63,700 bases of DNA from an uncultured Maritimibacter sp. (GTDB lineage Bacteria > Pseudomonadota > Alphaproteobacteria > Rhodobacterales > Rhodobacteraceae): positions 1 to 63,700 of the forward strand of contig CAYGRI010000001.1 of NCBI GenBank assembly GCA_964352155.1, given 5' to 3'. The number at the start of each line of letters is the position of its first letter. Position 1 is the first letter of the stretch. The notes below the pieces were generated by a model, which had not been told where the DNA came from, made no database searches, and saw nothing but the letters and a program-made list of their open reading frames with translations. Below, piece by piece: positions 3,276-63,700 of this stretch. The position numbers and the translations under genes are program-made.

Positions 3276-3541
3276 GGCGTCTCTCCTGATCGGCTGCATG
3301 GGAATCGAATCTGTACAATAGGGGGACGGTAGCACAGAATGGCCCGGGGCGCCGTTGGGGGGCAAGGCGACCCGGGCCGGAGGCAGAGCCGCGCGGCGAT
3401 GGCCAGTGCCTGCCTGCGACGCTTCGGGATACACCGATCACCCGGCAGGATGGCTTGGCGCATAGTAACCCTCTTTGACCGCTCGGCAGGCCTGCACCTG
3501 GGGCAAATGTGGTCCTCCGCCCCGGATGAAAGGCAGAGTGA

Positions 3542-6581: not shown

Positions 6582-7409
6582 CTAACGCAGTGCCTCGAAC
6601 CAGTCGAGCGCGAGGTCGGCCCAGCCCAGCGGGACCGAATGCGCGCCAGGATGCAGCGCGAAATCGAGCCGCGCGCCGCTCTCGCAGTCGGTCCAGCGTC
6701 TGATCTGGAAATCGTCCTTTGCGTCGAAGGCGTTGGGCTGCAACCGGCAGTCATTGGCCGCGCGCCAGATCTGCATTGCGACAAAGACGTCGCCCTGGGC
6801 GATGCCGCTGTCAAAGGCGCGCCCTTCCAGCGGCACTGTCCCGTCCCGCCAGCCATGGGTGTGGAACAGGTCGACCGGCCCGCGGCAAGCCGTCGGATGC
6901 GGGCGCCAGAAGCTGCCCGCCACCGGGGCATAGGCGCGAAAACTGTCGGGGGTGTCGCAGGCGATATAGCTGGCCATCGACCCGCCAATCGAGAATCCGG
7001 CCAACAGTATCCTGTCCCGGTCGAGCCCAAAGCGCGCGGCGGCGTTATCGGCCACCGAGCGGAGAAAGGCGCCCTCGTTCCGCCGGATCGGGCGATCGGG
7101 ATGGAAATCCCAGCGGCGCCCGTTCCGGTCCTGCATCGGCTGGCCGTCGGGGGCGATCACCGCATAGCCCCGGGCCAGCAAAGCGTCGACCATTCCGGTG
7201 TTGCGCATGGTGCCTTCGCCGCTGCTGCCAAAGCCATGCAGGAAGACGACCGCCGGTGCGCTTTCGGCATCGGTCTCTGGCAGGACGATATGATAGCTGC
7301 CGTCGGGCAGGGTGCAGGCGCCGGGATCGCGTCCGCAATCCGCCTGCGCCGCCCCGCCCAACAGGGCCGCGGCGAGGCCAAGGCCTGCACAAACAACGGC
7401 CCTGATCAT
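6582..7409 (-). CDS. Exported alpha/beta-hydrolase esterase (PHB depolymerase/LpqP-like)
   Basis: Signal peptide ending AQA; FLHGFG oxyanion motif, GFSIGG nucleophile elbow, HGWRDGTVP, HPGAH; start overlaps opgH stop. Confidence 0.8.
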   Translation of the reverse strand: MIRAVVCAGLGLAAALLGGAAQADCGRDPGACTLPDGSYHIVLPETDAESAPAVVFLHGFGSSGEGTMRNTGMVDALLARGYAVIAPDGQPMQDRNGRRWDFHPDRPIRRNEGAFLRSVADNAAARFGLDRDRILLAGFSIGGSMASYIACDTPDSFRAYAPVAGSFWRPHPTACRGPVDLFHTHGWRDGTVPLEGRAFDSGIAQGDVFVAMQIWRAANDCRLQPNAFDAKDDFQIRRWTDCESGARLDFALHPGAHSVPLGWADLALDWFEALR

Positions 7410-9169
7410 CGGCACAACCCCAGCGGGCGCAGCAGCCGCCCGCCGCCGATCCGCCGCTGCACCAGCCAAGACACCGGCACCGTCAGCGCAAGGCCGATGG
7501 CCACGGGCAGCAGCCAAGGCGTCAGATGCCCGATGGACGCCAGGGTCAGCAGACCGATCCCAAGGCCGGTTTCCGTGGCATGGAACCGCAGCAAGACCAG
7601 CAGGCCCGGCCGACCAGAGGTATGCGGCATCCATCCACCATCGAACCCCGCAAGGGTGCGCAGCACCGCGCGGACCTGATGCACCATCAGCGCCGGAGCG
7701 ATCAGGACCGACAAGGCGATCTCTGCCAGCACCGAGGCCGCGAAGACCGGCGCCTCGGCCCACCTGATCCCGCGGTCGCGGATATGCGCCACGACGCCCG
7801 CCAGTTTCGGTCCGATCAGCATCAGGCAGACAAAGCTCACAAGCGTCGCCTGAGACAGCGCGGGATAGACCGGCCAGTTTGGCATCAAAGGGTTCCCGGT
7901 GAAGAAATCGTGCATGCCGACACTCTGTCCCGCCAGCGCCCACAAGATCAGCAGGCTCATCCACCAGACCGAGGCTAGATAAGCCATCGCGCCCTGCAGC
8001 AGGTGAAACCGCGACACAGGCGCAAGGCCCGGCACGCCCAGAAGCCGCAGGTGCTGCATGTTGCCCTGACACCAACGGCGGTCGCGGCGCAGGTAGCCCG
8101 GCAGGGTTTCGGGCGTCGCCTCAAAGCTTTCGGCGGCCTCGGGCAGCATTCGCACGCCCCAGCCTGCGCGACGGATCAGCGCCGCCTCGACAAAATCATG
8201 GCTCAGGATGACCCCGCCACGCGGGGCGCGCCCGGCCAGATGCGGCAGCCCGGCACAGGCGGCGAAGGCACGCGTGCGCAGCAGCGCGTTGTGGCCCAGA
8301 AAATTGGCCTCGTCCCCGGCCCACAGGGCAAATCCGCGCGCCAGGTTGAGGCCATAGACCTCGGAGGCGAAGGATTGCAGGCGCTGCCACAGCGTGGTGC
8401 CCGGAAGGACCCGGGGCGGCGACTGGATCAAGCCCAGCGCCGGCTCTGCCGCCATCAGATCGGCCATGCGGCGCACGCTGTCCGGGCCCATGACGCTGTC
8501 GGCATCCAGGATCAGGATCGCCTCGTGGGCCCCGCCTTCGGACACCACCCAATTGCGGATATTGCCGGATTTGTAGTCGGTGTTCTCCGCCCGGTGGCGG
8601 TACTGGATCGGCAGGGTGGGATGGGCGTGCCGGGCCATGCGGATCGCGGCGTCCTCGATCACTGTGTCGGCGGCGTCGCGGGTATCTGACAGGACATGCA
8701 GCGAGAACCGGTGCTTTGCGCCGTGCGGACGGGACAGGGCCGCCAAAAGGTCGGTCGCGGTGCCGATGGTCGCGGCGGCCGGTTCGCCATACATCGGCAA
8801 CAGGATCGCAACGCTCAGCCCCCTGTCCGGTTTGGCGGGGGCATAGGGCCGCCAGACCAGCCCCAGCAGTGCCGAACAAAACGACAGCGCGACCCAGTAG
8901 AAGGCAAGGAGCGTCACGGCGACCACCATCGCTTCGACGACCCCCGGCGCGCCGTCCACTGCGAACCATCCAAGGCTGGACCAGCCGAGGATCGCCGACA
9001 GGCCCAGCGGTGCGATCAGCACAAGGGCCCGCACCACGCGGGTGCGGGGCGCGCTGCGGCTGCCGGGCGCGGCGGGGTCCGTGAACCGGGCGCGCAGGGA
9101 CTGGTCGGGCATCGGCAGCGGGTGCGAGGTCGCCTCTCCCGCAAGCGGCAGGCGGAACGGAACGGTCAT
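7406..9169 (-). CDS. opgH: Glucans biosynthesis glucosyltransferase OpgH/MdoH (GT2), copy 1
   Basis: KSGNI, ILDADS, GHNA, LSHDFVEAA and RDRRWCQGN motifs; flanking TM helices. Confidence 0.93.
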   Translation of the reverse strand: MTVPFRLPLAGEATSHPLPMPDQSLRARFTDPAAPGSRSAPRTRVVRALVLIAPLGLSAILGWSSLGWFAVDGAPGVVEAMVVAVTLLAFYWVALSFCSALLGLVWRPYAPAKPDRGLSVAILLPMYGEPAAATIGTATDLLAALSRPHGAKHRFSLHVLSDTRDAADTVIEDAAIRMARHAHPTLPIQYRHRAENTDYKSGNIRNWVVSEGGAHEAILILDADSVMGPDSVRRMADLMAAEPALGLIQSPPRVLPGTTLWQRLQSFASEVYGLNLARGFALWAGDEANFLGHNALLRTRAFAACAGLPHLAGRAPRGGVILSHDFVEAALIRRAGWGVRMLPEAAESFEATPETLPGYLRRDRRWCQGNMQHLRLLGVPGLAPVSRFHLLQGAMAYLASVWWMSLLILWALAGQSVGMHDFFTGNPLMPNWPVYPALSQATLVSFVCLMLIGPKLAGVVAHIRDRGIRWAEAPVFAASVLAEIALSVLIAPALMVHQVRAVLRTLAGFDGGWMPHTSGRPGLLVLLRFHATETGLGIGLLTLASIGHLTPWLLPVAIGLALTVPVSWLVQRRIGGGRLLRPLGLCR

Positions 9170-10692
9170 GCGCGCACCCAGCGGTTCACCCAGACCTCCG
9201 CCGCGCGCCGTCCACCGCGCCACAGCTCTGCGCGCAATTCGGCAAAGCGCACATCGCCGATCAGAGTCAGGTCCAGCCGCATGCCGCCGGTCGCCGGATT
9301 GCGATGCAGCACCGCGCCAGAGATCGCCCCGGCGCTGGTCGTCACCCGCGTCTCGATCCGCGAGGGGTCATCGCCCAGCGCGGGATGCGGGCCATAGTCG
9401 ACGGCGAACAGCCGCCCCGCCTCGAATACCCGCGCGCCGGTGCTGGTGGCGATGACGGGCGCCACCGTCCCCTCGTCGGGCGCGGCGCTGCCCCAGTACA
9501 GGCGATAGTCGAACCGGTGCTCCTGCCCGGCCGCCAGGGCCGTGGCAGGCCGCCAGAAGGCGACGATATTGTCGTTGATCTCGCGGTCGGTGGGAATTTC
9601 GACAAGAATCACAGAGCCGCCGCCCCAATCGCCCTGCGGTTCGACCCAAAGCGAGGGGCGCCGGTCATAGCGTGCTTCCAGATCGTCATAGTCGCTAAGG
9701 TCGCGGGCCCGCTGCATCAGGCCGAACCCGCGCGGAGAGGTGTCGCCAAAGGCGCTGATCTGCAGGGTAGGCGGATTGTTGAGGGGGCGCCACAGCGTCT
9801 CGCCGTTGCCGTTCATCATCAGCAGCCCGTCGCTGTCATGCACCGCCTCGCGGAAATCGTCAAAGCGCGGGCGGTTGATGTCGCTGAACAGGAACATCGA
9901 GGTGCCGGGCGCGATGCCCACCGTGGGCAGGTCGACGCGGGGGAACAGCCGGGCACTGACGGTCATCCGCGTCGTGTCGCCCTTGGCGATGGTAAAGCTG
10001 TAGGCTCCCGCGACCGAGGGGCTGTCCAGCAGCGCATGCACCGTCACCTCTGACGCGCCGGGCGGGGCGGCCTCGATCCAGAAGTCGCGGAAGACCGGAA
10101 ACTCCTCGCCCCCCGGTTCGGCGGTGTTCAACGCCAGGCCACGGGCCGAGATACCGTAGCCATGGCCGCGCCCGATGGCCCGGAAATAGCTGGCGCCCTG
10201 GAACACGGCGTACTCCTGAAACCGCCCCTCCGCCTCCAACTCTCCCCGCAGGCGGAACCCGGAAAAGCCCGTGTCCTGGGCGGGCAGGTCCGGGAAGCGG
10301 TCGGTGCGGGCGAAGGCGCCCAGGTCGAACAGGACGGGGCGGGCCGTGCCCCCTTCGACCACGTTGATGGTGATCTTGTGGCTGAAGTACAGCCCGGCCA
10401 CGAACAGATCCGCATGGACGGCGCTTTCGGTGCCGCGGAACAGCGCATTGCGCGGGTCAAACCAGATGCCGCGAAACGTGTCATAGCTCAGGCCGCGCCA
10501 GGCGGCACCGACTGCGGGCGGCGCGGTGTAGGCGCGCGCGGCGAGGGCGCGGGCGTGGGCGGCAACGGTTTCGGCATCGAAGGGCGCAGGCTGGCCAAGC
10601 TCCATCCCCGCAAAGGCCCCGGTCGGCGCACCGCCAAGCGCGGCCAGCCCGCCCATCAGCGCCAGCGTCTGGCGGCGGGTCAACCCGCTCAT
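9166..10692 (-). CDS. opgG: Periplasmic glucan biosynthesis protein OpgG/OpgD family, Tat signal, copy 1
   Basis: TRRQTL twin-arginine leader; FQGASYFRA, YGISARGLA, EEFP, HDSDGL, WRPLNNP, EINDNIVAFW. Confidence 0.92.
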   Translation of the reverse strand: MSGLTRRQTLALMGGLAALGGAPTGAFAGMELGQPAPFDAETVAAHARALAARAYTAPPAVGAAWRGLSYDTFRGIWFDPRNALFRGTESAVHADLFVAGLYFSHKITINVVEGGTARPVLFDLGAFARTDRFPDLPAQDTGFSGFRLRGELEAEGRFQEYAVFQGASYFRAIGRGHGYGISARGLALNTAEPGGEEFPVFRDFWIEAAPPGASEVTVHALLDSPSVAGAYSFTIAKGDTTRMTVSARLFPRVDLPTVGIAPGTSMFLFSDINRPRFDDFREAVHDSDGLLMMNGNGETLWRPLNNPPTLQISAFGDTSPRGFGLMQRARDLSDYDDLEARYDRRPSLWVEPQGDWGGGSVILVEIPTDREINDNIVAFWRPATALAAGQEHRFDYRLYWGSAAPDEGTVAPVIATSTGARVFEAGRLFAVDYGPHPALGDDPSRIETRVTTSAGAISGAVLHRNPATGGMRLDLTLIGDVRFAELRAELWRGGRRAAEVWVNRWVRA

Positions 10693-11882
10693 GACCGGAC
10701 CGCCTGGGCGGGGGCGCCGCTAGGGACGGTGGCGGATTGCGGTCGCTTGATCGCCTGTTTCCAGGGTTTTGCCTTGAAATAGGCCGCCCCCCGCGCCACC
10801 CCGATTATGATCGCAAAGCCCGCGAGGTTCACCGCCAGCGCCGCCAGCGGACCGCCCCCCGCGAGGTTGAGGAACGCGCCCAGAACCCGCGCCATCACCA
10901 TGGAGGCCGCAAAGACCGCAAGCGATTGCTGGCCCACCTGCGACACCGCGGCGATGACCTTGCCCGCCAGGCCCGTGCGGTGCAGCCGCACCCCGCGCGC
11001 GCCCACGGCCACCCAGGCCAGATAGGCCAGCGCCAGGAAGTGGATATAGCGCAGCACGCCGAAATCGGACTTGTCGAACAGAAAAGACCAGTCGCCGCGC
11101 CACTCCCGCACGAACTCTGACGCCCGGATGATCTTGTACCAGGCGAAGGGCACCGACAGCACCACGATCAGGATCGCGAGGATTACCAGCCAGCGGCGCA
11201 CCGGCGGCGCGGGCAGCCAGCCCGACATCAGGGCGAACCCCGTGAAGAACACCAATTGCCAGGCGAAGGGGTTGAAGAACCACATCCGCTTTGACCCGGT
11301 CGAGAACCACAGCTCCGCCGGCAGGTTCAGCCCGGAGGAGGCCGCGATCCACAGGGCCAGGCTGAACGCAAAGGCCAGCCGCACATCCAGACTGGCCAGG
11401 GCGATCATCACCGGAATCAGCGCCAGAATCACCAGATACATCGGCAGAATGTCAAAGTAATTGGGCACATAGGTCAGCGTCAGCAGACCGATCACATTGC
11501 CTTCGGGGTTGTTCAGGAACGGATACAGGTTCAGCGCGCCGACCTCGTTGCGCGGAAAGATCTGCGTGGCGTTCAGCACCAGCATCAGGAACAGCGTGAC
11601 AAAGAACACGCCCAGATGCACCCAGTAGACCTGCCAGACCCGAAAGGCGATCGACATCGTGCCCATCAGCCAGCCCGCGCGCGCGAACACCGCGCCAAAG
11701 GCCAGCGCCGACGCCATGCCCGAGCAGAAGACGAACATCTCTGTCGCATCCGAAAAGCCGAAGCGCGCCGGGATCCACAGGGTCCAGGGGTTGGCGGTGA
11801 CATGGGCGATCAGGATGATGAACATGCCCACGCCCCGAAAGAAGTCGAGCCTTGGGTCTCGGGGCCGTTTTGCCACTGTCAT
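10689..11882 (-). CDS. opgC: OpgC-domain membrane acyl(succinyl)transferase
   Basis: RDPRLDFFRG, FGFSDATEMFVFCSG, DILPMY, FNPFAWQ, GQQSL; multi-TM. Confidence 0.9.
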   Translation of the reverse strand: MTVAKRPRDPRLDFFRGVGMFIILIAHVTANPWTLWIPARFGFSDATEMFVFCSGMASALAFGAVFARAGWLMGTMSIAFRVWQVYWVHLGVFFVTLFLMLVLNATQIFPRNEVGALNLYPFLNNPEGNVIGLLTLTYVPNYFDILPMYLVILALIPVMIALASLDVRLAFAFSLALWIAASSGLNLPAELWFSTGSKRMWFFNPFAWQLVFFTGFALMSGWLPAPPVRRWLVILAILIVVLSVPFAWYKIIRASEFVREWRGDWSFLFDKSDFGVLRYIHFLALAYLAWVAVGARGVRLHRTGLAGKVIAAVSQVGQQSLAVFAASMVMARVLGAFLNLAGGGPLAALAVNLAGFAIIIGVARGAAYFKAKPWKQAIKRPQSATVPSGAPAQAVRS

Positions 11883-11883
11883 C

Positions 11884-13221
11884 TCAGACCACCTGCATCC
11901 GCGCGTCATCGATCAGCGACAGCCGCGCATCGGCATAGCCATCCAGCGCGCCGCCGCGCCGGGAGAGGCGGTCATGCAGCAAGCCCGCGGCGGTGTCCAT
12001 ATAGCCGCTGCGCATGGCGGCCTCGATCGTGATCCGGTCAAAGATGTCGCGCTGGGCATGGCTGCCGCCCAGGGATTGCAGGCCGTCCCGCCCCGCGCGC
12101 AGATGCACCCATGCGGTGGAATATTCCCCGCTGGCAAAGGCGTGCAGGCCCTTGGCCACATGCAGACCGGGATGGGCGATCACGCTTTGCGCCTCGTCCG
12201 GCACGGACCGCGCCGCCTGCATCCGGGCGATCAGGCGGGTGGCTGCCGCGTCCCGCGCGCCGCCGCACAGCGCCAGCATGTAATGCAGATCGGCGAAAGC
12301 CAGGCAGCCGTCGGTGGCGCGATGTTCAGCCAGCGCCGCCAGCTCCTCCCACCGATCGCCCACCGCCACGCCCTCAAGCTCCAGCCGCGACAACAGCGAG
12401 GCGGCGTTCGAGATGTCGCGGTAATCGTCGGTCTTCTCGGCCCGGATCTCGGCATCGTATTGCGCCAGGGCGATGTCGTATTCGCCCAGATCCAGATGCA
12501 TCAGCGCCCGGTGCCACCAGACATGGAAGCGGAAGTTGTTGCAATGCGCCCAGGAGTCTTCGCGCCCGCTCAGCCAGTCCAGCCCCTCGCGCGCCCGGCC
12601 TGTCATGTCGAACACATGCGCCACCGCGTGCAGGCCCCAGGCGTCATCGGGGGTCAGCGCCACGCCCGCGCGCCCGCTGTGTTCGGCGGCGGCATAGGCG
12701 CCGGTTTCCTCCAGCGTGAAGGCGTGGCAGCCCAGCAGATAGCCGCGGGCCGGGTGATCGTCCCAGGCGTCCAGCACCCCCTCGACCGAGGCGCGCATGG
12801 CCTTTGGACGGCCCATGATGAAATGGATCGCCTGAACCATCTTCATCGCCAGCGCATCGCGCGGATGGAGCGACAGGATTGTCTGCAACCGCGCGGCGGC
12901 CCGGCTGGGGCGCCCGTCCAGCCAGTCGCCCAGCGCGTGGACAAAGCCGATCTCGCGCCCGGTGGCCGGGGCGCCTGTCATTGCGGCGGCATGCGCCTCG
13001 CGCGCGATGGGCACCATTTCCGACTTGGCCAGAAGCAGGCAGGACAGCCCCCGGATCGCCTGACCCAGCGCGAAATCCGGCGCGGCGGCCAGCACCGCGT
13101 TCAGCTCCGGCCCGGTGGCGGCGGCATGGGACAAGACCCCGTGGATGACCCGGTTCCAAGCCTCTATCTGCGCGGCAGGCAGCGAGGTTGGCATTCCACT
13201 CAGGTCATCGGATACGGGCAT
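11884..13221 (-). CDS. Tetratricopeptide repeat protein 38 (TTC38)-like protein
   Basis: AFTLEETG, DAWGLHAVAHVFDM, HVWWHRAL, ASLLSRLE and LGGSHAQRD motifs. Confidence 0.85.
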   Translation of the reverse strand: MPVSDDLSGMPTSLPAAQIEAWNRVIHGVLSHAAATGPELNAVLAAAPDFALGQAIRGLSCLLLAKSEMVPIAREAHAAAMTGAPATGREIGFVHALGDWLDGRPSRAAARLQTILSLHPRDALAMKMVQAIHFIMGRPKAMRASVEGVLDAWDDHPARGYLLGCHAFTLEETGAYAAAEHSGRAGVALTPDDAWGLHAVAHVFDMTGRAREGLDWLSGREDSWAHCNNFRFHVWWHRALMHLDLGEYDIALAQYDAEIRAEKTDDYRDISNAASLLSRLELEGVAVGDRWEELAALAEHRATDGCLAFADLHYMLALCGGARDAAATRLIARMQAARSVPDEAQSVIAHPGLHVAKGLHAFASGEYSTAWVHLRAGRDGLQSLGGSHAQRDIFDRITIEAAMRSGYMDTAAGLLHDRLSRRGGALDGYADARLSLIDDARMQVV

Positions 13222-52296: not shown

Positions 52297-52497
52297 GCCG
52301 CAAAGGCGCAAGGGCGATGCGCACCGGCCCGTGCCAGAACGCATCGGTCCGGGGAAAATCGCCGCTCCGTCTGGTGTGCCGAGAAACCGCTTGAAACCGA
52401 ACGAACGATGTCCAACACTCATTCCAATGAAAGCAGAGTTTTTGCTTGAAATATCGTAAGTGTTCACTGTCGCAAGTATGGTAAAGGGTGAGACCTG

Positions 52498-52674
52498 ATG
52501 GAGCCTTCGTCAAACGCAAGCGACACCGATCCGCACGACGAGGCAGACACCTCGGATCAGGCAGCGGAGACGGCGAGCCCCGATGCCGCACGCCGCCTGT
52601 CGCGGATCGAGCGGATCCGGCAAAAGGTCAAAAAGCTTCAGGGAAAGGACCCTGACATCTATCCGATGTGGTAG
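52498..52674 (+). CDS. 58-aa peptide (absent from ORF track): acidic N-terminus, basic helix, DPDIYPMW tail
   Basis: MEPSSNASDTDPHDEADTSDQAAETASPDAARRLSRIERIRQKVKKLQGKDPDIYPMW*; follows an AT-rich promoter-like stretch; first ORF of the cassette. Confidence 0.65.
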   Translation: MEPSSNASDTDPHDEADTSDQAAETASPDAARRLSRIERIRQKVKKLQGKDPDIYPMW

Positions 52675-52708
52675 GGTCAGGCACCCGGCCTTTGCAACGG
52701 AGGATGTC

Positions 52709-52882
52709 ATGCATTATCTCGCCACGCTGTTCTGGTTCATCGTGTTCGTCGCACTCTGGACGCCGCTGTCCGTTGTGTTCCGGGCCAGCGGTGCCGGGCG
52801 GTTCGCGCGGTCCGCGCGGGACGAGAGCCTGTGGACGCCGCGCAAAACCCGCTCCTTCCGCGAAATGCGGCGCCAAGGCTGA
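52709..52882 (+). CDS. SxtJ-like small membrane protein (57 aa)
   Basis: GGAGG RBS; FIVFVALWTPLSVVFR..G....ESLWTPR...EMRRQ resembles the SxtJ C-terminal pattern. Confidence 0.65.
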   Translation: MHYLATLFWFIVFVALWTPLSVVFRASGAGRFARSARDESLWTPRKTRSFREMRRQG

Positions 52883-52954
52883 CGGGACCCTGATTGCGGG
52901 AGTCAGACACGCTTTGCGGCACGTGCCGGTCCGGGCAAACCGGGGGCGAGCGCG

Positions 52955-54790
52955 GTGAAGATACTGGGCCTTTCCGCCTTCTATCACGACAGCGCCGCCG
53001 TCTTGCTGGACGACGGGCGCATCGTTGCCGCCGCGCAGGAAGAACGGTTCACCCGGCGCAAGTTCGATGCCGCCTTCCCGGAACATGCGATCACGTCCTG
53101 CCTGCAATCCGTGGGCTGCACCCTGCGCGACATCGACTTCATTGCCTTTCACGAGAAACCGCTCCGCAAGTTCGACCGGCTGTTGCAGACCTATGCCGCC
53201 CATGCCCCGCGCGGTTTCTGGTCGTTTCGTCGGGCGATGCCGGCGTGGCTGGGCGGAAAACTGTATCAGAAACGACAGCTCCGTCGCGCGCTGCGGGCGA
53301 TGGATCCCGGCGCTGACCTGACCGGCCGGCTGCTGTTTGCCGAACATCACCAAAGCCATGCGGCGTCGGCCTTCTATCCGTCCCCGTTCGACCAAGCCCT
53401 GGTGCTGACGATGGATGGCGTCGGGGAATGGGCTACAACGTCTGTCTGCCTGGGCAACGGCGCGGATCTGGTGCCCGAGCTGGAGATGTCGTTTCCCCAT
53501 TCGCTGGGGTTGCTATACACGGCAGTGACCCAGTACCTCGGCTTCAAGGTGCTGTCGGGCGAATACAAGGTCATGGGCCTTGCGCCCTATGGCACGCCGC
53601 GCTTTCGCGATCTCTTTCTGGACAGGCTGGTTGATCTGAAGGACGACGGCTCTTTTGCGCTGGACCAGCGGTATTTCGACTATTGCGTCGGGTCCTCGAT
53701 GATCTCGGACGCTTTCGCCGATTTGTTCGGTCAGCCAAGGCGGATGTCCGAGGATGCGCCGCTGGAGCCTTTCCATATGGATGTCGCCGCCTCGCTTCAG
53801 GCGGTGACCGAAGAGATTGTCTTGCGGATGGTGCGCCACCTGACGGCCCGGTTTAATCAGCAGTGCCTGTGCCTGGCGGGTGGGGTCGCGCTCAATTGTG
53901 TCGCGAACGGTCGGATCCTGCGCGAAACCGGCATCAAGGATCTGTGGGTCCAGCCCGCCGCCGGGGATGCGGGCTGTGCGCTGGGCGCGGCGCTGGCGGT
54001 CTGGCATCAGCATCTGGGCCAGCCCCGCCCCGCGCCGCAGGTCCCTGACGCGATGCAAGGCGCCTATCTTGGCCCCGACTTCGCCCAGACCGAGATTGAG
54101 GCGCGGCTGCACGGCGCCGGTGCCGTGAGCGAGACATTGGACGAAGACGCCATGATCGCGCGGACGGTGCAGGCCTTGATCGACGGGAAGGCCGTTGGAT
54201 GGTTTCAGGGGCGGATGGAATTCGGGCCCCGGGCGCTTGGGGCGCGGTCGATCCTGGCGGATCCCCGGTCCACTACCATGCAGAAAACGTTGAACCTGAA
54301 GGTCAAGAACCGCGAGAGCTTTCGCCCCTTTGCCCCGGCGGTCCGGGAAGAGGATGTGTCGGACTGGTTCGAACACGCGGGGCCAAGCCCCTATATGCTG
54401 GTCACCGCCTCCGTTCAGGACCGGCATCGGCGCAGCGACAACGACAGCGACAGCGGCGACATGATGGCCCGGCTGAACCGCCTCCGCTCCAGCATTCCGG
54501 CGGTGACGCATGTGGATTACTCCGCGCGGTTACAGACGGTCAGTGCGGGTACGAACCCTCGGTTCCATCGCCTTTTGACCGCGTTCAAGGCGGCCACGGG
54601 CTGCCCGGTGCTGGTTAACACCAGCTTCAACGTGCGCGGAGAGCCGATTGTCTGCACGCCAGAAGATGCCTTTCGCTGCTTCATGGGGACCCAGATCGAC
54701 GTTCTGGTGGTGGGCACAAGCCTGATGGTCAAGGCCGGGCAAGATCCGGGTCTGCGCGCGCGCCTCGCGCAGACCTTTGATCCGGATTAG
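52955..54790 (+). CDS. O-carbamoyltransferase, NodU/CmcH/TobZ family (SxtI-like)
   Basis: LGLSAFYHDSAA, QEERFTR, EHHQSHAASAF, DGVGEW, GEYKVMGLAPYG, GGVALNC, EFGPRALG, RESFRPFAP, NTSFNVRGEP. Confidence 0.95.
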   Translation: MKILGLSAFYHDSAAVLLDDGRIVAAAQEERFTRRKFDAAFPEHAITSCLQSVGCTLRDIDFIAFHEKPLRKFDRLLQTYAAHAPRGFWSFRRAMPAWLGGKLYQKRQLRRALRAMDPGADLTGRLLFAEHHQSHAASAFYPSPFDQALVLTMDGVGEWATTSVCLGNGADLVPELEMSFPHSLGLLYTAVTQYLGFKVLSGEYKVMGLAPYGTPRFRDLFLDRLVDLKDDGSFALDQRYFDYCVGSSMISDAFADLFGQPRRMSEDAPLEPFHMDVAASLQAVTEEIVLRMVRHLTARFNQQCLCLAGGVALNCVANGRILRETGIKDLWVQPAAGDAGCALGAALAVWHQHLGQPRPAPQVPDAMQGAYLGPDFAQTEIEARLHGAGAVSETLDEDAMIARTVQALIDGKAVGWFQGRMEFGPRALGARSILADPRSTTMQKTLNLKVKNRESFRPFAPAVREEDVSDWFEHAGPSPYMLVTASVQDRHRRSDNDSDSGDMMARLNRLRSSIPAVTHVDYSARLQTVSAGTNPRFHRLLTAFKAATGCPVLVNTSFNVRGEPIVCTPEDAFRCFMGTQIDVLVVGTSLMVKAGQDPGLRARLAQTFDPD

Positions 54791-54802
54791 GCTGGGGGGC
54801 AG

Positions 54803-55849
54803 ATGGCCACGCGCAACCTGACAGGGATCAAACGATTGGGGCGCCGCGTCCTGCGGGCCTCGGGCCTGCGGTGGACGCCCGGTTGGGTGCGGGCCGACGG
54901 CCCCCCCCGCGGCTTGCCGCTTCAGCCGGCAACCGCGCCTGCGCCGGACACGCCCACGCGCTTGCTGCCCTGCGATTCCCAGACCCATGCGCACCAGCCC
55001 GGCAATCTACTGATGCGCTATTCCGGGGATCAAAGTGGCGAGGTCGCCTATCAGTTCAACTCAGCCGGGTACCGCAGCGAAGAGCTTGATCTGACGGCAG
55101 AGCACCGGATCCTCCTGGTCGGCGAAAGCCACGCCTTCGGGATGGGCGTTTCGTTCGAGGATGGCTTTGGCCAGCGCCTGAAGACCCATATGGCCGAGGC
55201 GCTGGGCCTGCCGGACGTCCAGGTCAACCTTGTCAATCTGTCGGTCTGTGCCGCCTCCGCCGACTACTGCACCCGCACCTTAATCCGTCAGGTCGATATT
55301 GTCCGGCCAAACCTCGTTCTGTGCTGCTTGCCCGTCTTTGACCGGATCGAGAACTACACCAAGCGCGGGCCAAGGGATTACAGCGTCAGCGGCATCGACC
55401 CCGCCAAACTGGACAGCGCGCCGATCCCGGTTCAGGGGTTTATCGACCTGTACAACCCGCTGCTGGGGCGGATGAACCAGCTGCGCAACGTTCTGTTGCT
55501 GCAAAGCCTGTGCGCGCGCAAGGGGATCGAACATCTCGTCCTGTCCGAAGACCTTCGCCCCGGCGCAATGAAAGCGGAAGTCCTGCAACCGGTGTTTGGT
55601 CAGGTGGATCAAGAGCGGGTGGCGCTGCATCGCTTTTTCCGCACCAAGATAGATCTGGCGAAGGATGACGGCCACTCCGGCCCGCGCACCCATGCCGCGC
55701 TGGCGATTTTTCTGCTGGACCGGATCGCCAGGCTGCCTAGGATACAGATCGCGTCCGACCGAGGCGCGCGTCTGCTTGAAATGGCAAAGCAGCTGAAGGC
55801 CGAGAGCCCGGACTGGGCCTTTGCCATGGACGCGGTAAAGAGATTTTGA
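54803..55849 (+). CDS. SGNH/GDSL hydrolase-like protein
   Basis: FNSAGYRS, LVGESHAFG (block I variant), VNLSV, DDGHSGPRTH (DxxH-type block V). Confidence 0.6.
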   Translation: MATRNLTGIKRLGRRVLRASGLRWTPGWVRADGPPRGLPLQPATAPAPDTPTRLLPCDSQTHAHQPGNLLMRYSGDQSGEVAYQFNSAGYRSEELDLTAEHRILLVGESHAFGMGVSFEDGFGQRLKTHMAEALGLPDVQVNLVNLSVCAASADYCTRTLIRQVDIVRPNLVLCCLPVFDRIENYTKRGPRDYSVSGIDPAKLDSAPIPVQGFIDLYNPLLGRMNQLRNVLLLQSLCARKGIEHLVLSEDLRPGAMKAEVLQPVFGQVDQERVALHRFFRTKIDLAKDDGHSGPRTHAALAIFLLDRIARLPRIQIASDRGARLLEMAKQLKAESPDWAFAMDAVKRF

Positions 55850-55898
55850 CGCGCGGTCTGTCCGGCGCCGGGGGCGCGCCCAGGAAAGAGGCACAGCG

Positions 55899-57233
55899 AT
55901 GAACCAGCCCGTTCCGCCCAAAACGACCGCATCCTCTGCCAAGGCGGATACCGCTTTCGACTGGGAAGCCTGCTGGTATCCCGTCTCGTTCCTCGAAGAC
56001 CTGCCGCGCGACCGTCCGACGCGCGTGTCGCTGTATGATACGGGGCTTGTGCTGTTCTTTGATGGGGCGGGACAGTTGCATTGCCTGCGCGATCTGTGCC
56101 CGCACCGTGCCGCACGGCTGTCGGATGGCCAGATCGTCGATGGGCGGCTGGAATGCCTGTACCACGGCTGGCAATTCGATGGGGCGGGCGATTGCCAGTT
56201 CATCCCGCAGATGCTGCCTGACAAGGACTACCCGATCCGCTCTTGCGTGCGGGCCTATCCCGTCCACCTGCGCGACGGCATTGTCTGGGTCTGGGCGGGC
56301 GATTCCGGCGCGGCGGATCCGGGGTGGATCCCGCACAGCAAGGCCGCCGGGGTCCAGGATCTTTGCGCGGTGACATTCCAGATGGATCTGCCCTATGACC
56401 AAAGCTACCTGATCGAGAATGTGATCGACATTGCCCATATTCACATCGCCCACGACGGGGTGCGCGGCGGCGGCATCCGGGCGGCGGCCAAACCGCTGCA
56501 ATTCGAGATCGAGCATAGTGGGATCGACGGGATCCGCGCCACCTTTCGGACGATCGGACTGAAACGCGCCGAGGGCAGCCCGCAGGTTGCCGGGGCGCAG
56601 GTGGAATACGTGGCGCCGAACCTGGTCCGCTATGCCTCTACCTATGCCGATGGTGGGCTGGTCGCGGGGCTCGAGCTGTTCGCGCTGCCGGTGGGCAAGG
56701 GGCGCAGCCGCCTCTTGTACCGCAAGTACAGCAATTTCACGGGATGGCGCGAGCGGATCAAACCCCGCTGGATGGAGCATCAGGTTCAATGCCTGATCCT
56801 TGAACAGGATATGAACGTCGTGGTCGGTCAGCATCAGGAGATCGAGGGGGCGCAACAGCCGCTCAGTACGCTATGGCTGCCGATCAAGACCTCGGACCGG
56901 CTGGTTGTGGAATACCGCAAATGGCTGGATCGTTTCGGCGCGGCGCTGCCGTTCTACCGGGGGTTCGCAACGGCCCGAAACAGCCAGATCGATCCCGGCG
57001 CCCCGCAGGCCCGCCACGACCGCAGCAGCCTGCACACGGCGATCTGCGGTACCTGCCAGCGGGTGGCGCGGCGTCTGGATCTGGGAGCGAGGGCAGCGGC
57101 GGGGCTGGCGGCGGTGGCGGCCGGGCTGGCCATCGCGTCGGGGGATCCCGGCGCTCGCCTTTGGCTTTTCGGGGTGGCGCTGCTGGCGGGGCTGGGTCAT
57201 CTGGCGCTGCGCCGGGCCCGCCGACGGTTCTAG
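55899..57233 (+). CDS. Rieske mononuclear-iron oxygenase, PAO/Tic55 family
   Basis: CPHR..CLYHGW Rieske motif; ENVIDIAHIHIAH iron site; SDRLVVEYRKWL; HTAICGTC CxxC; two C-terminal TM helices. Confidence 0.88.
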   Translation: MNQPVPPKTTASSAKADTAFDWEACWYPVSFLEDLPRDRPTRVSLYDTGLVLFFDGAGQLHCLRDLCPHRAARLSDGQIVDGRLECLYHGWQFDGAGDCQFIPQMLPDKDYPIRSCVRAYPVHLRDGIVWVWAGDSGAADPGWIPHSKAAGVQDLCAVTFQMDLPYDQSYLIENVIDIAHIHIAHDGVRGGGIRAAAKPLQFEIEHSGIDGIRATFRTIGLKRAEGSPQVAGAQVEYVAPNLVRYASTYADGGLVAGLELFALPVGKGRSRLLYRKYSNFTGWRERIKPRWMEHQVQCLILEQDMNVVVGQHQEIEGAQQPLSTLWLPIKTSDRLVVEYRKWLDRFGAALPFYRGFATARNSQIDPGAPQARHDRSSLHTAICGTCQRVARRLDLGARAAAGLAAVAAGLAIASGDPGARLWLFGVALLAGLGHLALRRARRRF

Positions 57234-57333
57234 AACATGGTGCCCGCAACCGGCCTCCGCCAGCGCCTTGGCCGCGCGAATGCCGGGGCAAAGCCTCTGA
57301 AACTGACTGCGCCTCTCGGGCGAGGAGATTGAT

Positions 57334-58176
57334 TTGACAGGATCGCCCACCGCGTCGGTACGGGATTTCTACCGCGAGATGCCGTTCAACTATTACTCGG
57401 ACGCCGCGCTGGCAGAACGCAATTTGCGGGCCAATCCCATCGCCGCCTATCCCGACCTCGACGCCCTGCTGGAAGAGGACGAGATCGGCTCTGTGCTGGA
57501 GCTTGGCTGCGGCGCGGGCTGGGCCGCGAATGCCATGGCCTTGCATTATGGCAAGACTGTTGTGGCGGTCGATTTCACCGCCAAGGCCCTGTCGCGCGCT
57601 CGCGAGGTGGCACAGCGCGTCGGCACTCAGCATCGGGTGGGTTTTGTAGAGCAGGATCTGTTCGATTACAGGTCGCAGCGCCGCTTTGATCTGGTGGCCA
57701 GCATCGGGGTCCTGCACCACACCCGCGATTGCCGCGCGGGGTTCGATCACGCCGCCAGCTTTGTCCGTCCCGGCGGGTATCTGTTCGTCGGCTTGTATCA
57801 CCTGCAAGGCCGCCGTCCGTTTCTGGAATACATGCGCGGGCTTGTGGCGACCGAGGGTGAAGACGCCGCCTTTGCCCGGTTCCGCGAGATCTCTGGCGAG
57901 CGGACGGACGAGACGCATCTGCGGTCCTGGTTCCGCGATCAGGTGCTGCATCCGCATGAAACCCAGCATAGTCTGGCAGAAGTCTGGACCTGGCTCGACG
58001 ACGCGGGTCTGACCCTGCGGTCCACCAATCTTAACGACTACGAGGCGCCGGGCGACCGCGCCGGGTTGATCGCGCAGGAAGCCGCTTTCGAGCTGCTGTC
58101 GATCCGTCGCAACCGCGACGAAGGGCGGTATTTCCCGGGCTTCTTCACTGTGCTGGCGCAGTCAGCGGCGGGGTGA
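57334..58176 (+). CDS. Class I SAM-dependent methyltransferase
   Basis: GAGGAG RBS with TTG; VLELGCGAG motif I, SIGVLHHT, PGGYL, WFRDQVLHPHE. Confidence 0.88.
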   Translation: MTGSPTASVRDFYREMPFNYYSDAALAERNLRANPIAAYPDLDALLEEDEIGSVLELGCGAGWAANAMALHYGKTVVAVDFTAKALSRAREVAQRVGTQHRVGFVEQDLFDYRSQRRFDLVASIGVLHHTRDCRAGFDHAASFVRPGGYLFVGLYHLQGRRPFLEYMRGLVATEGEDAAFARFREISGERTDETHLRSWFRDQVLHPHETQHSLAEVWTWLDDAGLTLRSTNLNDYEAPGDRAGLIAQEAAFELLSIRRNRDEGRYFPGFFTVLAQSAAG

Positions 58177-62102: not shown

Positions 62103-62897
62103 ATGCAGAACTTGACCAAAGTCGGGCTGCGCTATTTCAATCGGATGGCAATTCTCAACCGCGATGTCAGCGATCGCGTCCGGCGCCGGTTCCCGCAGAT
62201 TCACCCCGCGCCGCCGCTGGTCCAGTTCGGTCTGGTCGCGGGGGCGGGCGGGATATGTCTGACAGCGCTCGAAATGGCGCTGTTTTCCGGCGTTCCGATA
62301 CCTGCGATGGCGGCGGCGCTTTCGTTCTATATCTGCGGCGCGGGGCTGGCGGGCTATGCGATGCATCTTTCCTATCCCCATGCGCTGCTGGGTTTTTGCA
62401 ATACGGTCACGCTGTTTCGTCTGGTGCTTGTCAGTGCCCTGGTGGTGCCGCTGGTGGCCGGGTCGGGCCATGTCTGGGCGGTCTTCGGGCTGGCCGCGCT
62501 GGCCCTGTCGCTGGACGGGCTGGACGGCTGGCTGGCGCGGCGCGACGGGCTGGTGTCGCGCTTTGGCGCGGCTTTCGACATGGAGGTCGATTCCGTCTTC
62601 GCCCTGCTTCTGGCGCTGTTGGCCTTTCTTGAGGGCACCGCCGGGCCGCTGGTGCTGATCCTTGGCCTGCCCCGCTATCTGTTTGCCTTGGCGGGCATGA
62701 TGTGTCCCTGGCTCAATGCGGGCGTTCCCGAACGGTTCAGCCGCAAGGTTGTCTGCGTCGTGCAGATCCTGACCCTCATCGCCCTGCAACTGCCGTTCTT
62801 TTCGCCTCTGGTGGCGAATTTCCTGGTGGGGGCGGTGGCGATGGCTCTGGTGTGGTCCTTCGGGCGCGATGTCCAATGGCTGTGGCGGGCGCGGGGG
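62103..62897 (+). CDS. CDP-alcohol phosphatidyltransferase family protein (stop codon at 62898-62900 overlaps next gene; start uncertain)
   Basis: NTVTLFR, LDGLDGWLARR...FGAAFDMEVD signature, RKVVCVVQ. Confidence 0.88.
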
Positions 62898-63700
62898 TGA
62901 GCCGCGTTCCTGTGGGGCAGGCGCTGCGGCTGATCCTTGCGGGGGCGTTGCTGTATCTGCTGCTCGTCCAGCCCAACCACCCGGGGGCGATGACTTGGCA
63001 GGCCTTGCTGGTGTTCCCGCTGGAATGGCCGGCGGTGCTGCTGGGTCTGCTGGCGTTGCGACCCGGTCGAGTCTCGGACCTTGTGCGGCTGGCGCTGGTG
63101 GCGGCGCTGACGGTGATCGTCGTGCTGAAGGTCGCCGATTTCGCGATGTTCACCGCCCTGGCGCGCGGGTTCAATCCGGTGGCCGACTTTCCGCTGATCG
63201 AGGCCTTTGTGCGGCTGCTTGTCGGGGCCATCGGCCAGCCGCTTGCGATCCTGGCGGTCGTGGCCGCCGTTGCCGCGATCTTTGCCGTGGCGGCGGCGCT
63301 GTGGTGGGCGACTGGGGTTTGGACCAAAGCGACTCTTCGCCCGGTGTTCGCCGTCGGAGCAGGGGGCGCGGCGGTTCTGGCCGCAGGCATCGCCACGGCA
63401 GAGATCGGCGAGACGATGGGGCGCTGGAGCTTGCCGGTCTCGCCGCCCGGCGCGGCGTTCACGGCGCGGGTCGGGGTGGAGCGGGTCAATCTGGTGCGCA
63501 ACACCCTTACCGAACTGCGCGCCTTTCGCGCTGCGGCCCTGGCCGATCCCTATGCCGATGCGCGTGGACTGCTGGACCTGATCGACCGCGATGTGCTGAT
63601 CGTCTATGTGGAAAGCTACGGCCGGACGAGCCTCGACACCCCCTATTTCGCGGAGATTCACCGCGAGACCCTGGCGCGCAGCGCGAAAGGCGCGCAGTTC
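62897..63700 (+). CDS. Membrane-anchored sulfatase/LTA-synthase-like protein (3' end truncated; absent from ORF track)
   Basis: GTGA overlap; open frame MSRVPVGQALRLILAGALLYLLLVQPNHP... to ...DVLIVYVESYGRTS at the window end. Confidence 0.7.
   Translation, partial: MSRVPVGQALRLILAGALLYLLLVQPNHPGAMTWQALLVFPLEWPAVLLGLLALRPGRVSDLVRLALVAALTVIVVLKVADFAMFTALARGFNPVADFPLIEAFVRLLVGAIGQPLAILAVVAAVAAIFAVAAALWWATGVWTKATLRPVFAVGAGGAAVLAAGIATAEIGETMGRWSLPVSPPGAAFTARVGVERVNLVRNTLTELRAFRAAALADPYADARGLLDLIDRDVLIVYVESYGRTSLDTPYFAEIHRETLARSAKGAQF

What the first reader, a model, noticed from the sequence alone, without database searches (positions are those of the whole stretch)
52498..58176. Six-gene carbamoylation/hydroxylation/methylation cassette with saxitoxin-cluster-like parts and a Tic55-like oxygenase
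Seen: six co-oriented genes behind an AT-rich leader (58-aa peptide, 57-aa SxtJ-like protein, carbamoyltransferase, SGNH-like protein, Rieske oxygenase, SAM methyltransferase) with gaps of 12-100 nt. The block sits between a catabolic operon and a convergent opg pair. Known: SxtI (carbamoyltransferase), SxtJ/K (small proteins), SxtL (GDSL) and Rieske oxygenases occur together in cyanobacterial saxitoxin clusters, and sxtIJK-like units also occur in non-toxin loci. Inference: this is a tailoring module with no scaffold synthase (no SxtA, PKS, NRPS or glycosyltransferase inside), acting on an unknown substrate such as a surface glycan or lipid, a small molecule, or the peptide. It is not evidence of saxitoxin production.
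Basis: partly seen in the sequence, partly recalled or inferred. Interest (0 to 1): 0.82.

Follow-up and report, generated by a model that had tools for sequence, protein, structure and literature searches.

The report
Soluble tyrosine-peptide carbamoyl relay cassette
A six-gene block shared by a few alphaproteobacteria encodes a small soluble peptide, similar to peptides that sit beside carbamoyl-adding enzymes in many viruses, which is predicted to dock on an esterase-fold enzyme and likely hands it a carbamoyl group through a conserved tyrosine, making it a likely membrane-free version of a relay described for acyl groups.

Summary
The six co-oriented genes are real, intact and conserved as a rare cassette with different flanks in each genome (peptide, SGNH and methyltransferase fall in the same 3 of 400 family genomes). 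It is not a saxitoxin locus. The key part is the 58-aa peptide: a basic helix plus an invariant P-x-I-Y-P-x-[W/F] C-terminus, in register with the SxtK tail (PFIYTLF) and the FXYXXF acyl-shuttle motif. A complex model docks its helix on the SGNH protein (0.61, best control 0.02); one homologue is fused to a tandem SGNH; related viral peptides lie next to a carbamoyltransferase in 59 of 77 loci (control 0 of 7). Best reading (0.5): a soluble Tyr shuttle passes carbamoyl from the SxtI-type transferase to SGNH Ser109, then onto an unknown acceptor hydroxylated by the PaO/TIC55-type Rieske enzyme. Main rival (0.25): a crocagin-like RiPP (CgnD is the SGNH's nearest solved fold; the methyltransferase resembles protein-lysine methyltransferases). 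No chemistry is shown, the tail was not placed in the model, and one genome lacks the peptide. The scan proposed the membrane SxtK relay before on other DNA; the soluble form and its viral family are new here.

The parts
52390..52497 (+). AT-rich leader, likely promoter region; no sigma-70 consensus found
   Evidence: GC 0.34-0.44 vs 0.645
52498..52674 (+). 58-aa peptide: variable acidic N-half, basic amphipathic helix (about 35-48), invariant tail with Lys43, Pro52, Ile54, Tyr55, Pro56 and terminal Trp; proposed carbamoyl-Tyr shuttle
52709..52882 (+). 57-aa stub of the SxtJ C-terminal third: one hydrophobic helix plus the conserved W tail; likely membrane anchor or partner of the carbamoyltransferase
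   Evidence: hhalign 94.8%; stub profile hits full SxtJ at 1e-8 to 7e-4; no Pfam hit; hydropathy 2.11
52955..54790 (+). NodU/CmcH-family carbamoyltransferase of the SxtJK-associated (SxtI-type) clade, GPRALGARS motif intact
   Evidence: Pfam 4.6e-97 and 6.6e-74; PDB NovN/GdmN/TobZ; tree
54803..55849 (+). Cytoplasmic SGNH-fold protein, Ser109-Asp288-His291, no block III Asn; insertion 195-219 is the predicted peptide docking site
55899..57233 (+). PaO/TIC55/PTC52-type Rieske oxygenase: C67 H69 C86 H89; N174 D177 H180 H185 D304; H379-C383-C386; two C-terminal hydrophobic helices
   Evidence: motif definitions in PMC6530659
57334..58176 (+). Class I SAM methyltransferase with a conserved RDQVLHPxE motif; longest structural matches are protein-lysine methyltransferases, tied in Z with ChlM

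Best explanation
The cassette likely works as a cytoplasmic carbamoyl relay: the carbamoyltransferase likely carbamoylates Tyr55 of the 58-aa peptide, whose basic helix is predicted to dock on the SGNH protein, and the group would then pass to SGNH Ser109 and on to a hydroxyl likely installed by the membrane-anchored Rieske oxygenase on an unknown host acceptor, with the methyltransferase likely adding a methyl to a nitrogen. Shown: gene content, intact catalytic residues, conservation, co-occurrence, loss of membrane anchors in peptide and SGNH. Predicted: peptide-SGNH binding. Inferred by analogy to DltX/PatA: the covalent Tyr and Ser intermediates. Guessed: the acceptor (a membrane-associated small molecule or lipid) and the methylated atom (the carbamate nitrogen or a lysine such as the invariant Lys43). 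The SxtJ stub would hold the transferase at the membrane; where the cassette has no intact transferase, an SxtJK-type one elsewhere in the genome would serve.
For: (1) Tail register: the peptide ends P-[DN]-I-Y-P-x-[WFR] with Tyr at -4 in 24 of 24 representatives; SxtK next to related transferases ends P-[FM]-[IV]-Y-T-[LIV]-F; FXYXXF is the Tyr acyl shuttle that feeds SGNH serines (PMC12148441 passages). A scan of all 207,660 stops of the genome for [FP].?IY..[FW]* gave 2 hits: this peptide and an MBOAT ending VAPFIYFQF. (2) Complex model SGNH+peptide: score 0.61, best of 3 controls 0.02; the mark was reached by 116 of 157 solved complexes and 2 of 215 mismatched pairs; runs share at least 71% of contacts, partner pLDDT at least 64; helix 36-48 on SGNH 195-219 and Asp180. 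(3) P0156 is two SGNH domains of this family with the peptide fused at the C-end; L024 has a similar peptide directly before an SGNH homologue with no Rieske or methyltransferase in the 3.1-kb contig. (4) Viral peptides (basic helix + DPFIY) match the family (hhalign 91.3%, E 9.5e-7) and have a carbamoyltransferase within 3 kb in 59 of 77 loci, all co-oriented, 42 within 330 nt, with no Rieske or methyltransferase homologue; reversed-pattern control 0 of 7; SGNH-like genes flank some (L095). So the peptide is a general transferase companion, not a pathway-specific core. (5) SxtK was not found in G000, G089 or G880, where the transferase is inside the cassette; G188 and G316, whose cassettes lack an intact transferase, carry sxtJ-sxtK-transferase-SGNH on the same contig; G332, with a lone SGNH lacking Ser and His, has neither peptide nor transferase. 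(6) Peptide and SGNH lack the membrane helices of SxtK and canonical SGNH (hydropathy -0.56 and 1.23 vs 2.38 and 2.74).
Against: No chemistry was observed. The complex model did not place the tail (49-58), so Tyr55 near Ser109 is not shown. The first F of FXYXXF is D/N here, and in the viral peptides only 0-3 residues follow the Tyr. Peptide and SxtK show no profile homology (0.2%; viral peptides vs SxtK 19.7%). A cytoplasmic transferase could act on its acceptor directly (TobZ, NovN, CgnI), so a shuttle is not needed in principle. Phaeobacter G880 (L018) has five of the six genes, but neither the peptide nor DUF5989 was found (cassette starts 93 nt from a contig end). The SGNH lacks the block III Asn. 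Only 4 of 80 viral loci hit the SGNH profile. Conservation counts come from profile- or pattern-selected hits and are partly circular; viral loci (68 distinct tails) and G188/G316 are kin. SGNH and methyltransferase folds point also to peptide-modifying enzymes.
Confidence: 0.5

Rival explanations
1. [quoted passage not shown]
For: Crocagin uses the same four enzyme classes on a precursor with a basic leader and I-Y-W core (PMC10070186). CgnD is the top VIA-align match of the SGNH model (Z 13.1, rmsd 4.2, 203 aligned; next 11.7). The methyltransferase's longest matches are protein-lysine methyltransferases (Rv2067c Z 17.7, 241 aligned; PKMT2 Z 17.6, 224) and Lys43 is Lys in 24 of 24. A second RiPP carbamoyltransferase acts on Lys (PMC13174530). 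It explains why no scaffold synthase is needed. Helix docking fits leader recognition equally well.
Against: No CgnB/E-like or Fe/2OG gene and no exporter in the six genes; terminal Trp is Phe in 4 and Arg in 1 of 24; fusion of the peptide to SGNH would be single-turnover (P0156); similar peptides sit by transferases in viral loci with no Rieske or methyltransferase homologue; no binding of CgnD to CgnA was detected in the crocagin paper; ChlM ties in Z (17.6, 178 aligned).
Confidence: 0.25
2. The peptide is a non-covalent adaptor or activator that bridges transferase and SGNH; the transferase carbamoylates a small molecule or lipid directly and the SGNH edits or removes an acyl or carbamoyl group.
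For: Only the helix is placed in the complex model; SxtL has been proposed as a decarbamoylase (PMC3037375 passages); characterised NodU-family enzymes act directly on small acceptors (established knowledge; PDB hits).
Against: Does not explain an invariant near-terminal Tyr shared with SxtK and the viral peptides, nor its match in register to the FXYXXF shuttle.
Confidence: 0.17
3. The cassette tailors or detoxifies chlorophyll-derived tetrapyrroles, as PaO/TIC55 and ChlM-like enzymes do.
For: Rieske has the PaO/TIC55/PTC52 motifs; ChlM ties for top methyltransferase fold; G000 has reaction-centre genes on C286.
Against: Reaction-centre genes were found in only 1 of the 4 cassette genomes searched; cyanobacterial plasmid homologues are 28-33% identical and the one inspected stands alone; does not account for peptide or transferase.
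Confidence: 0.05
4. The cassette decorates OPG or another exported glycan made by the adjacent opgG/opgH genes.
For: opgG/opgH lie 146 nt downstream, convergent.
Against: None of the other cassette loci has opg flanks; the SGNH has no export signal or anchor.
Confidence: 0.03

Closest known systems
DltX/DltB/DltD and PatA/PatB (FXYXXF acyl-Tyr shuttle to an SGNH serine; PMC12148441)
   Same: Small peptide with a Tyr four residues from an aromatic C-terminus; partner SGNH with Ser-Asp-His; proposed covalent relay.
   Different: No MBOAT and no membrane helix; donor enzyme is an ATP-dependent carbamoyltransferase; first motif residue is D/N; all parts look cytoplasmic; relay not shown.
SxtI-SxtJ-SxtK-SxtL unit (saxitoxin clusters and stand-alone units such as L005, L049, L057)
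   Same: Transferase in the same clade (60-63% identity), SxtJ-derived gene, Tyr-tailed microprotein, SGNH.
   Different: SxtJ cut to its last third; SxtK (DUF5989) replaced by a soluble peptide without profile homology; SGNH of a different, unanchored family; Rieske and methyltransferase added; no core sxt genes in the block.
Crocagin RiPP cluster (CgnA, C, D, I, L; PMC10070186)
   Same: Basic peptide with aromatic C-terminus, oxygenase, SGNH (nearest solved fold), carbamoyltransferase, methyltransferase.
   Different: No CgnB/E; Rieske instead of Fe/2OG dioxygenase; tail IYPM[WF] not x-Y-W; no ABC transporter in the block.
PaO/TIC55/PTC52 Rieske oxygenases (PMC6530659)
   Same: Rieske and mononuclear iron motifs, C-terminal CxxC, hydrophobic C-terminal helices.
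   Different: Found in mostly non-phototrophic bacteria, tied to a methyltransferase gene; substrate unknown.
Protein-lysine methyltransferases Rv2067c / Rickettsia PKMT
   Same: Longest structural matches; the LHP motif region aligns with Rv2067c.
   Different: 280 aa against 384 and 510 residues in the solved chains; 14-22% identity; Z tied with ChlM.

Membership tests
FXYXXF acyl-Tyr shuttle (DltX/PatA) | Invariant Tyr four residues from an aromatic C-terminus | tested here: met
   Tyr -4 in 24 of 24, W/F at -1 in 23 of 24
FXYXXF acyl-Tyr shuttle (DltX/PatA) | Phe at the first motif position | tested here: not met
   D in 21, N in 3 of 24
FXYXXF acyl-Tyr shuttle (DltX/PatA) | Membrane anchor and MBOAT donor | tested here: not met
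   No hydrophobic helix; no MBOAT in the cassette; the genome's MBOAT on C258 has its own tail
FXYXXF acyl-Tyr shuttle (DltX/PatA) | Partner SGNH with catalytic Ser that binds the peptide | tested here: met
   S109/D288/H291; predicted binding 0.61 vs control 0.02, a prediction only
FXYXXF acyl-Tyr shuttle (DltX/PatA) | Covalent acyl-Tyr and acyl-Ser intermediates | not testable with these tools
   needs biochemistry
SxtK / DUF5989 | Pfam PF19451 or profile homology; single membrane helix | tested here: not met
SxtJ (PF19588) | Full-length Pfam match | tested here: not met
   no hit at E<=10; only the C-terminal third matches
Saxitoxin cluster | Core scaffold genes (sxtA, sxtG and others) in the locus; SxtT/H-type oxygenase | tested here: not met
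   All six genes assigned otherwise; SxtT match only E 5e-17 and lacks the PaO-type C-terminal part. Genome-wide search for sxtA not done.
NodU/CmcH carbamoyltransferase | Carbam_trans_N and _C domains, GPRALG motif | tested here: met
   NodU equivalog score 148 is far below its 1000 cut-off
SGNH hydrolase superfamily | SGNH fold with block I Ser and block V DxxH | tested here: met
SGNH hydrolase superfamily | Block III Asn of the oxyanion hole | tested here: not met
   LPxxDR in its place in the 18 aligned rows
PaO/TIC55/PTC52 | Rieske CxH..CxxH, Nx2Dx2Hx4H iron site, C-terminal CxxC | tested here: met
   invariant in 7 of 7; PF08417 over cut-off; motifs per PMC6530659
PaO/TIC55/PTC52 | Tetrapyrrole substrate | not testable with these tools
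   needs assay
Crocagin-type RiPP | CgnB/CgnE pair and Fe/2OG dioxygenase | tested here: not met
   no gene of the six is left for them
Crocagin-type RiPP | Core x-Tyr-Trp at the C-terminus | tested here: not met
   I-Y-P-M-W, Trp replaceable; definition from PMC10070186
Crocagin-type RiPP | CgnD-like SGNH and CgnL-like methyltransferase | tested here: inconclusive
   CgnD top match, Z 13.1, 15% identity; methyltransferase rows are tied and unspecific
Protein-lysine methyltransferase (PKMT/Rv2067c) | Fold and motif similarity beyond the SAM core | tested here: inconclusive
   tie with ChlM

The most novel reading that the evidence does not exclude
NodU/SxtI-type carbamoyltransferases of a large clade do not act on their final acceptor but on the Tyr of a microprotein; besides the membrane form (SxtK) there is a widespread soluble form (basic helix + DP[FDN]IY) in bacteria and many viruses, which carries the carbamoyl group to interchangeable SGNH proteins that choose the acceptor. 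This cassette couples that relay to a chloroplast-type Rieske oxygenase and a PKMT-like methyltransferase to make an undescribed carbamate.
Probability: 0.4. Interest if true: 0.85.

Novelty: new variant of a known kind. Interest (0 to 1): 0.68.

Why it matters
It would extend the acyl-tyrosine shuttle from MBOAT membrane systems to a soluble, MBOAT-free carbamoyl relay, give a role to an unannotated microprotein family that is common beside viral carbamoyltransferases, and offer an explanation for why SxtI, J, K and L travel together. Because peptide, transferase and SGNH here appear soluble, the idea can be tested in a tube with three proteins. If the RiPP rival holds instead, it would be a third carbamoylated RiPP class after crocagin and the std cluster (count per PMC13174530), with a Rieske oxygenase.

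Tried and rejected
Single-sequence locus search for the SGNH in GTDB contigs found nothing; the profile found 2. Peptide profile: 0 of 300 class genomes, none in viral contigs by its own pattern. PaO family over cut-off in 0 of 200 class genomes; Rieske in 0 of 190 phylum genomes and none in viral contigs; methyltransferase no match in phages. SGNH profile has no sequence relative in the PDB. CgnL was not among the listed methyltransferase fold rows, which excludes nothing. Insertion site could not be fixed: the upstream oxidoreductase was found in 0 of 5 same-genus genomes and opgG only as 37-38% matches in 3 of 5. No RNA holder was listed. The protein Atlas gave no answer. Schultz et al. 2023 was not held; I know it only through PMC12148441. 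Whether crocagin CgnJ/CgnK are SxtJ/K-like could not be told from the supplement table (supplement file 2 was unreadable). The careful carbamoyltransferase tree did not finish; the quick tree is used. Literature searches that found no paper on this cassette or relay: DUF5989 0 papers; carbamoyltransferase+Rieske+precursor peptide+SGNH+methyltransferase, 4 of 5 terms, 0 papers; some searches listed only saxitoxin or unrelated papers (listings seen); subscription journals are not covered. Earlier scan notes: nothing by sequence or for the Rieske/crocagin wording. Rejected: saxitoxin production, OPG tailoring, direct SxtK homology.
Full report
Observation. The six co-oriented ORFs, their gaps (34, 72, 12, 49, 100 nt) and the AT-rich leader are present as described. 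Pfam and NCBIfam name the carbamoyltransferase, the Rieske/PaO oxygenase and the SAM methyltransferase, and the flanks (MTTB, DAO upstream; MdoG, MdoH convergent). My early scans of the 57-aa ORF used a wrong frame; in the right frame it has no Pfam hit but its alignment matches the last third of SxtJ (94.8%) and a stub profile finds full SxtJ genes. The 348-aa ORF has no family hit; its model (pLDDT 83.9) matches SGNH proteins in Foldseek and VIA-align, with Ser109, Asp288 and His291 conserved in all 12 rows of the first alignment and no block III Asn.

Distribution. The window lies in G000 (87.6% complete, 6.1% contamination). The transferase was found in 0 of 7 same-genus genomes. Among 400 family genomes the SGNH profile hit 5 (one weak), the methyltransferase 3 and the peptide 3, the same three: G089, G188, G316. 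The full order peptide-stub-transferase-SGNH-Rieske-methyltransferase recurs in L017 (Antarcticimicrobium MAG, the same contig as G089) and L020; L018 (Phaeobacter sp. QD34_24) has the last five; G188 and G316 have peptide-SGNH-SGNH-Rieske-methyltransferase, with a decayed transferase after it in G188 and an intact one in the related L021. Flanks differ in each genome. Wider searches were empty: peptide 0 of 300 class genomes, Rieske 0 of 190 phylum genomes. In the protein database, the best 119 methyltransferase and 120 Rieske hits share 28 longest-contig lengths (about 0.9 expected, maximum 5 in 2000 jitters), and 5 of 25 peptide records share a length with a methyltransferase and 5 with a Rieske. 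This is indirect, but points to the same module in Kiloniellales, Mangrovicoccus and unnamed metagenomes.

The peptide. Six copies keep the last 24 residues with mostly third-position changes. A search of 1.84 billion representatives gave 24 hits; Lys -16, Pro -7, Ile -5, Tyr -4 and Pro -3 are invariant, the last residue is W 19, F 4, R 1; these hits were chosen by the profile, so the counts lean towards conservation. Residues 37-47 form an amphipathic basic helix and there is no membrane segment. One hit, P0156, is two SGNH domains of this family with the peptide fused at the end. L024 has a similar peptide directly before an SGNH homologue. A complex of SGNH 45-348 with peptide 24-58 passed: 0.61 against a best control of 0.02 (mark reached by 116 of 157 solved complexes and 2 of 215 mismatched pairs; runs share at least 71% of contacts; partner pLDDT at least 64). 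Helix 36-48 lies on SGNH 195-219 and Asp180; the tail was not placed.

What the tail resembles. Closely related transferases (60-63% identity) come in units sxtJ-sxtK-transferase-SGNH. SxtK ends in P-F-I-Y-T-L-F, in register with P-D-I-Y-P-M-W. PMC12148441 (passages) reports that FXYXXF at the end of DltX and PatA carries an acyl group on Tyr to an SGNH serine. In this genome a scan of 207,660 stops found only the peptide and an MBOAT ending VAPFIYFQF. There is no profile homology between peptide and SxtK (0.2%), so the likeness is in the motif only. A recalled motif was then tested on viral contigs: at least 120 matches, 80 with flanks, 77 with the motif at an ORF end; 59 of these 77 have a carbamoyltransferase within 3 kb, all on the same strand, 42 within 330 nt, and none has a Rieske or methyltransferase homologue; the reversed pattern gave 7 matches and no transferase. 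These viral peptides match the family (hhalign 91.3%, E 9.5e-7), though the window's own peptide alone scores only E 0.49 against their profile. Some are flanked by GDSL/DUF6071-like genes, but only 4 of 80 loci hit the SGNH profile.

Presence and absence. DUF5989 was not found in G000, G089 or G880, where the transferase is in the cassette; G188 and G316 carry an intact sxtJ-sxtK-transferase-SGNH unit on the same contig; G332 has a lone SGNH lacking Ser and His, no transferase and no peptide. The quick tree puts five cassette transferases in one clade (98) inside the SxtJK group and L021 in another (97). Against this pattern, G880 showed no peptide in a profile and a pattern search; its cassette starts 93 nt from a contig end and the DNA there is not the peptide tail.

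The other enzymes. The Rieske protein keeps the Rieske, iron and CxxC motifs in 7 of 7 rows that PMC6530659 (passages) gives for PTC52, TIC55 and PaO, plus two C-terminal hydrophobic helices. Reaction-centre genes were found only in G000 of the four cassette genomes searched. The methyltransferase model (pLDDT 96.1) matches Rv2067c and Rickettsia PKMT2 over the most residues, tied in Z with ChlM, and only Rv2067c aligns past the SAM core among the four alignments shown; these two are described as protein-lysine methyltransferases in listings and abstract starts. A Sphingobium plasmid carries a parallel block: ferritin-like protein, transferase, DUF5989, related methyltransferase.

Mechanism. 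I commit to a soluble carbamoyl relay (0.5): transferase to Tyr55 to Ser109 to a hydroxyl made by the Rieske enzyme on an unknown membrane-associated acceptor, with N-methylation. Gene content and co-occurrence are shown, peptide-SGNH binding is predicted, covalent steps are inferred, acceptor and methyl target are guesses. The RiPP rival (0.25) is serious: crocagin (PMC10070186, main text parts 1-4 of 6 and searches of the supplement) uses the same enzyme classes and CgnD is the nearest solved fold; PMC13174530 (abstract and passages) adds a Lys-carbamoylating RiPP enzyme. It is ranked lower because the peptide family follows transferases and SGNH proteins rather than this pathway, the terminal Trp is replaceable, and CgnB/E and exporters are missing. 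A non-covalent adaptor (0.17), tetrapyrrole tailoring (0.05) and OPG tailoring (0.03) follow.

Known and new. SxtI, J, K, L are listed as transferase, two hypothetical proteins and a GDSL lipase (PMC2684587 passages); SxtL was proposed to remove carbamoyl groups, and both sxtI and sxtL are lost in Lyngbya wollei (PMC3037375 passages); sxtJ/K/L-like genes also occur in the suomilide cluster (PMC10157211 passages). My searches found no paper on DUF5989 or on this gene set. Two earlier scan notes on other genomes already propose SxtK as a DltX-like carbamoyl shuttle; I had noted the idea before seeing them, and they are not independent evidence. New here are the soluble peptide, its predicted SGNH docking, its fusion form, its viral relatives, and the coupling to a PaO-type oxygenase and PKMT-like methyltransferase. 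Verdict: real, rare, a new variant of the Tyr-shuttle kind; interest 0.68.

Noticed in passing
L067-L146 (viral contigs): Large family of 27-48 aa basic peptides ending DPFIY(x0-3) directly beside viral carbamoyltransferases, among radical SAM, 2OG-Fe(II) and GDSL/DUF6071-like genes.
   Followed up: partly
L064:5154-8846 (Sphingobium sp. TomTYG65 plasmid): Parallel block: ferritin-like protein, carbamoyltransferase, DUF5989, related methyltransferase. The ferritin-like protein's end looks SxtJ-like by eye but was not hit by the stub profile.
   Followed up: partly
L037:6556-7041 (G188): Decayed SxtJ stub and carbamoyltransferase fragments at the end of the cassette; the related locus L021 has them intact.
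   Followed up: yes
L038:9219-11153 (G316): Two SGNH domains in one frame; the second lacks the catalytic Ser.
   Followed up: partly
L039:9500-10453 (G332): Lone SGNH homologue next to a serS-like gene, with Ser and His lost and no peptide or transferase found in the genome.
   Followed up: partly
L018:1-62: Where the peptide gene should end, an open frame cut by the contig start ends in a hydrophobic stretch with IYW near its stop.
   Followed up: no
L025:4115-6916: Distant SGNH homologue between an ATP-grasp gene and a ferritin-like diiron gene.
   Followed up: no
L059:5798-7421 (G000 contig C258): MBOAT ending VAPFIYFQF followed by a 76-aa membrane protein; its tail is close to the SxtK tail.
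   Followed up: partly
L011 (G000 contig C39:3165-4841): Second, distant carbamoyltransferase (35% identity) in the same genome.
   Followed up: no
window 7409-11909: A second opgH/opgG pair with opgC on the same contig, so the window has two OPG loci.
   Followed up: no
G000 contig C286:3309-4973: Two photosynthetic reaction-centre genes in this assembly, none in the three other cassette genomes searched.
   Followed up: partly
window 1254-3434 and 62103-62900: Sel1-repeat protein and a CDP-alcohol phosphatidyltransferase.
   Followed up: no
L040 (G396 contig C12): Low-GC, phage-looking contig inside a family genome, with a carbamoyltransferase and a weak SGNH match; partly withheld bases.
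   Followed up: no
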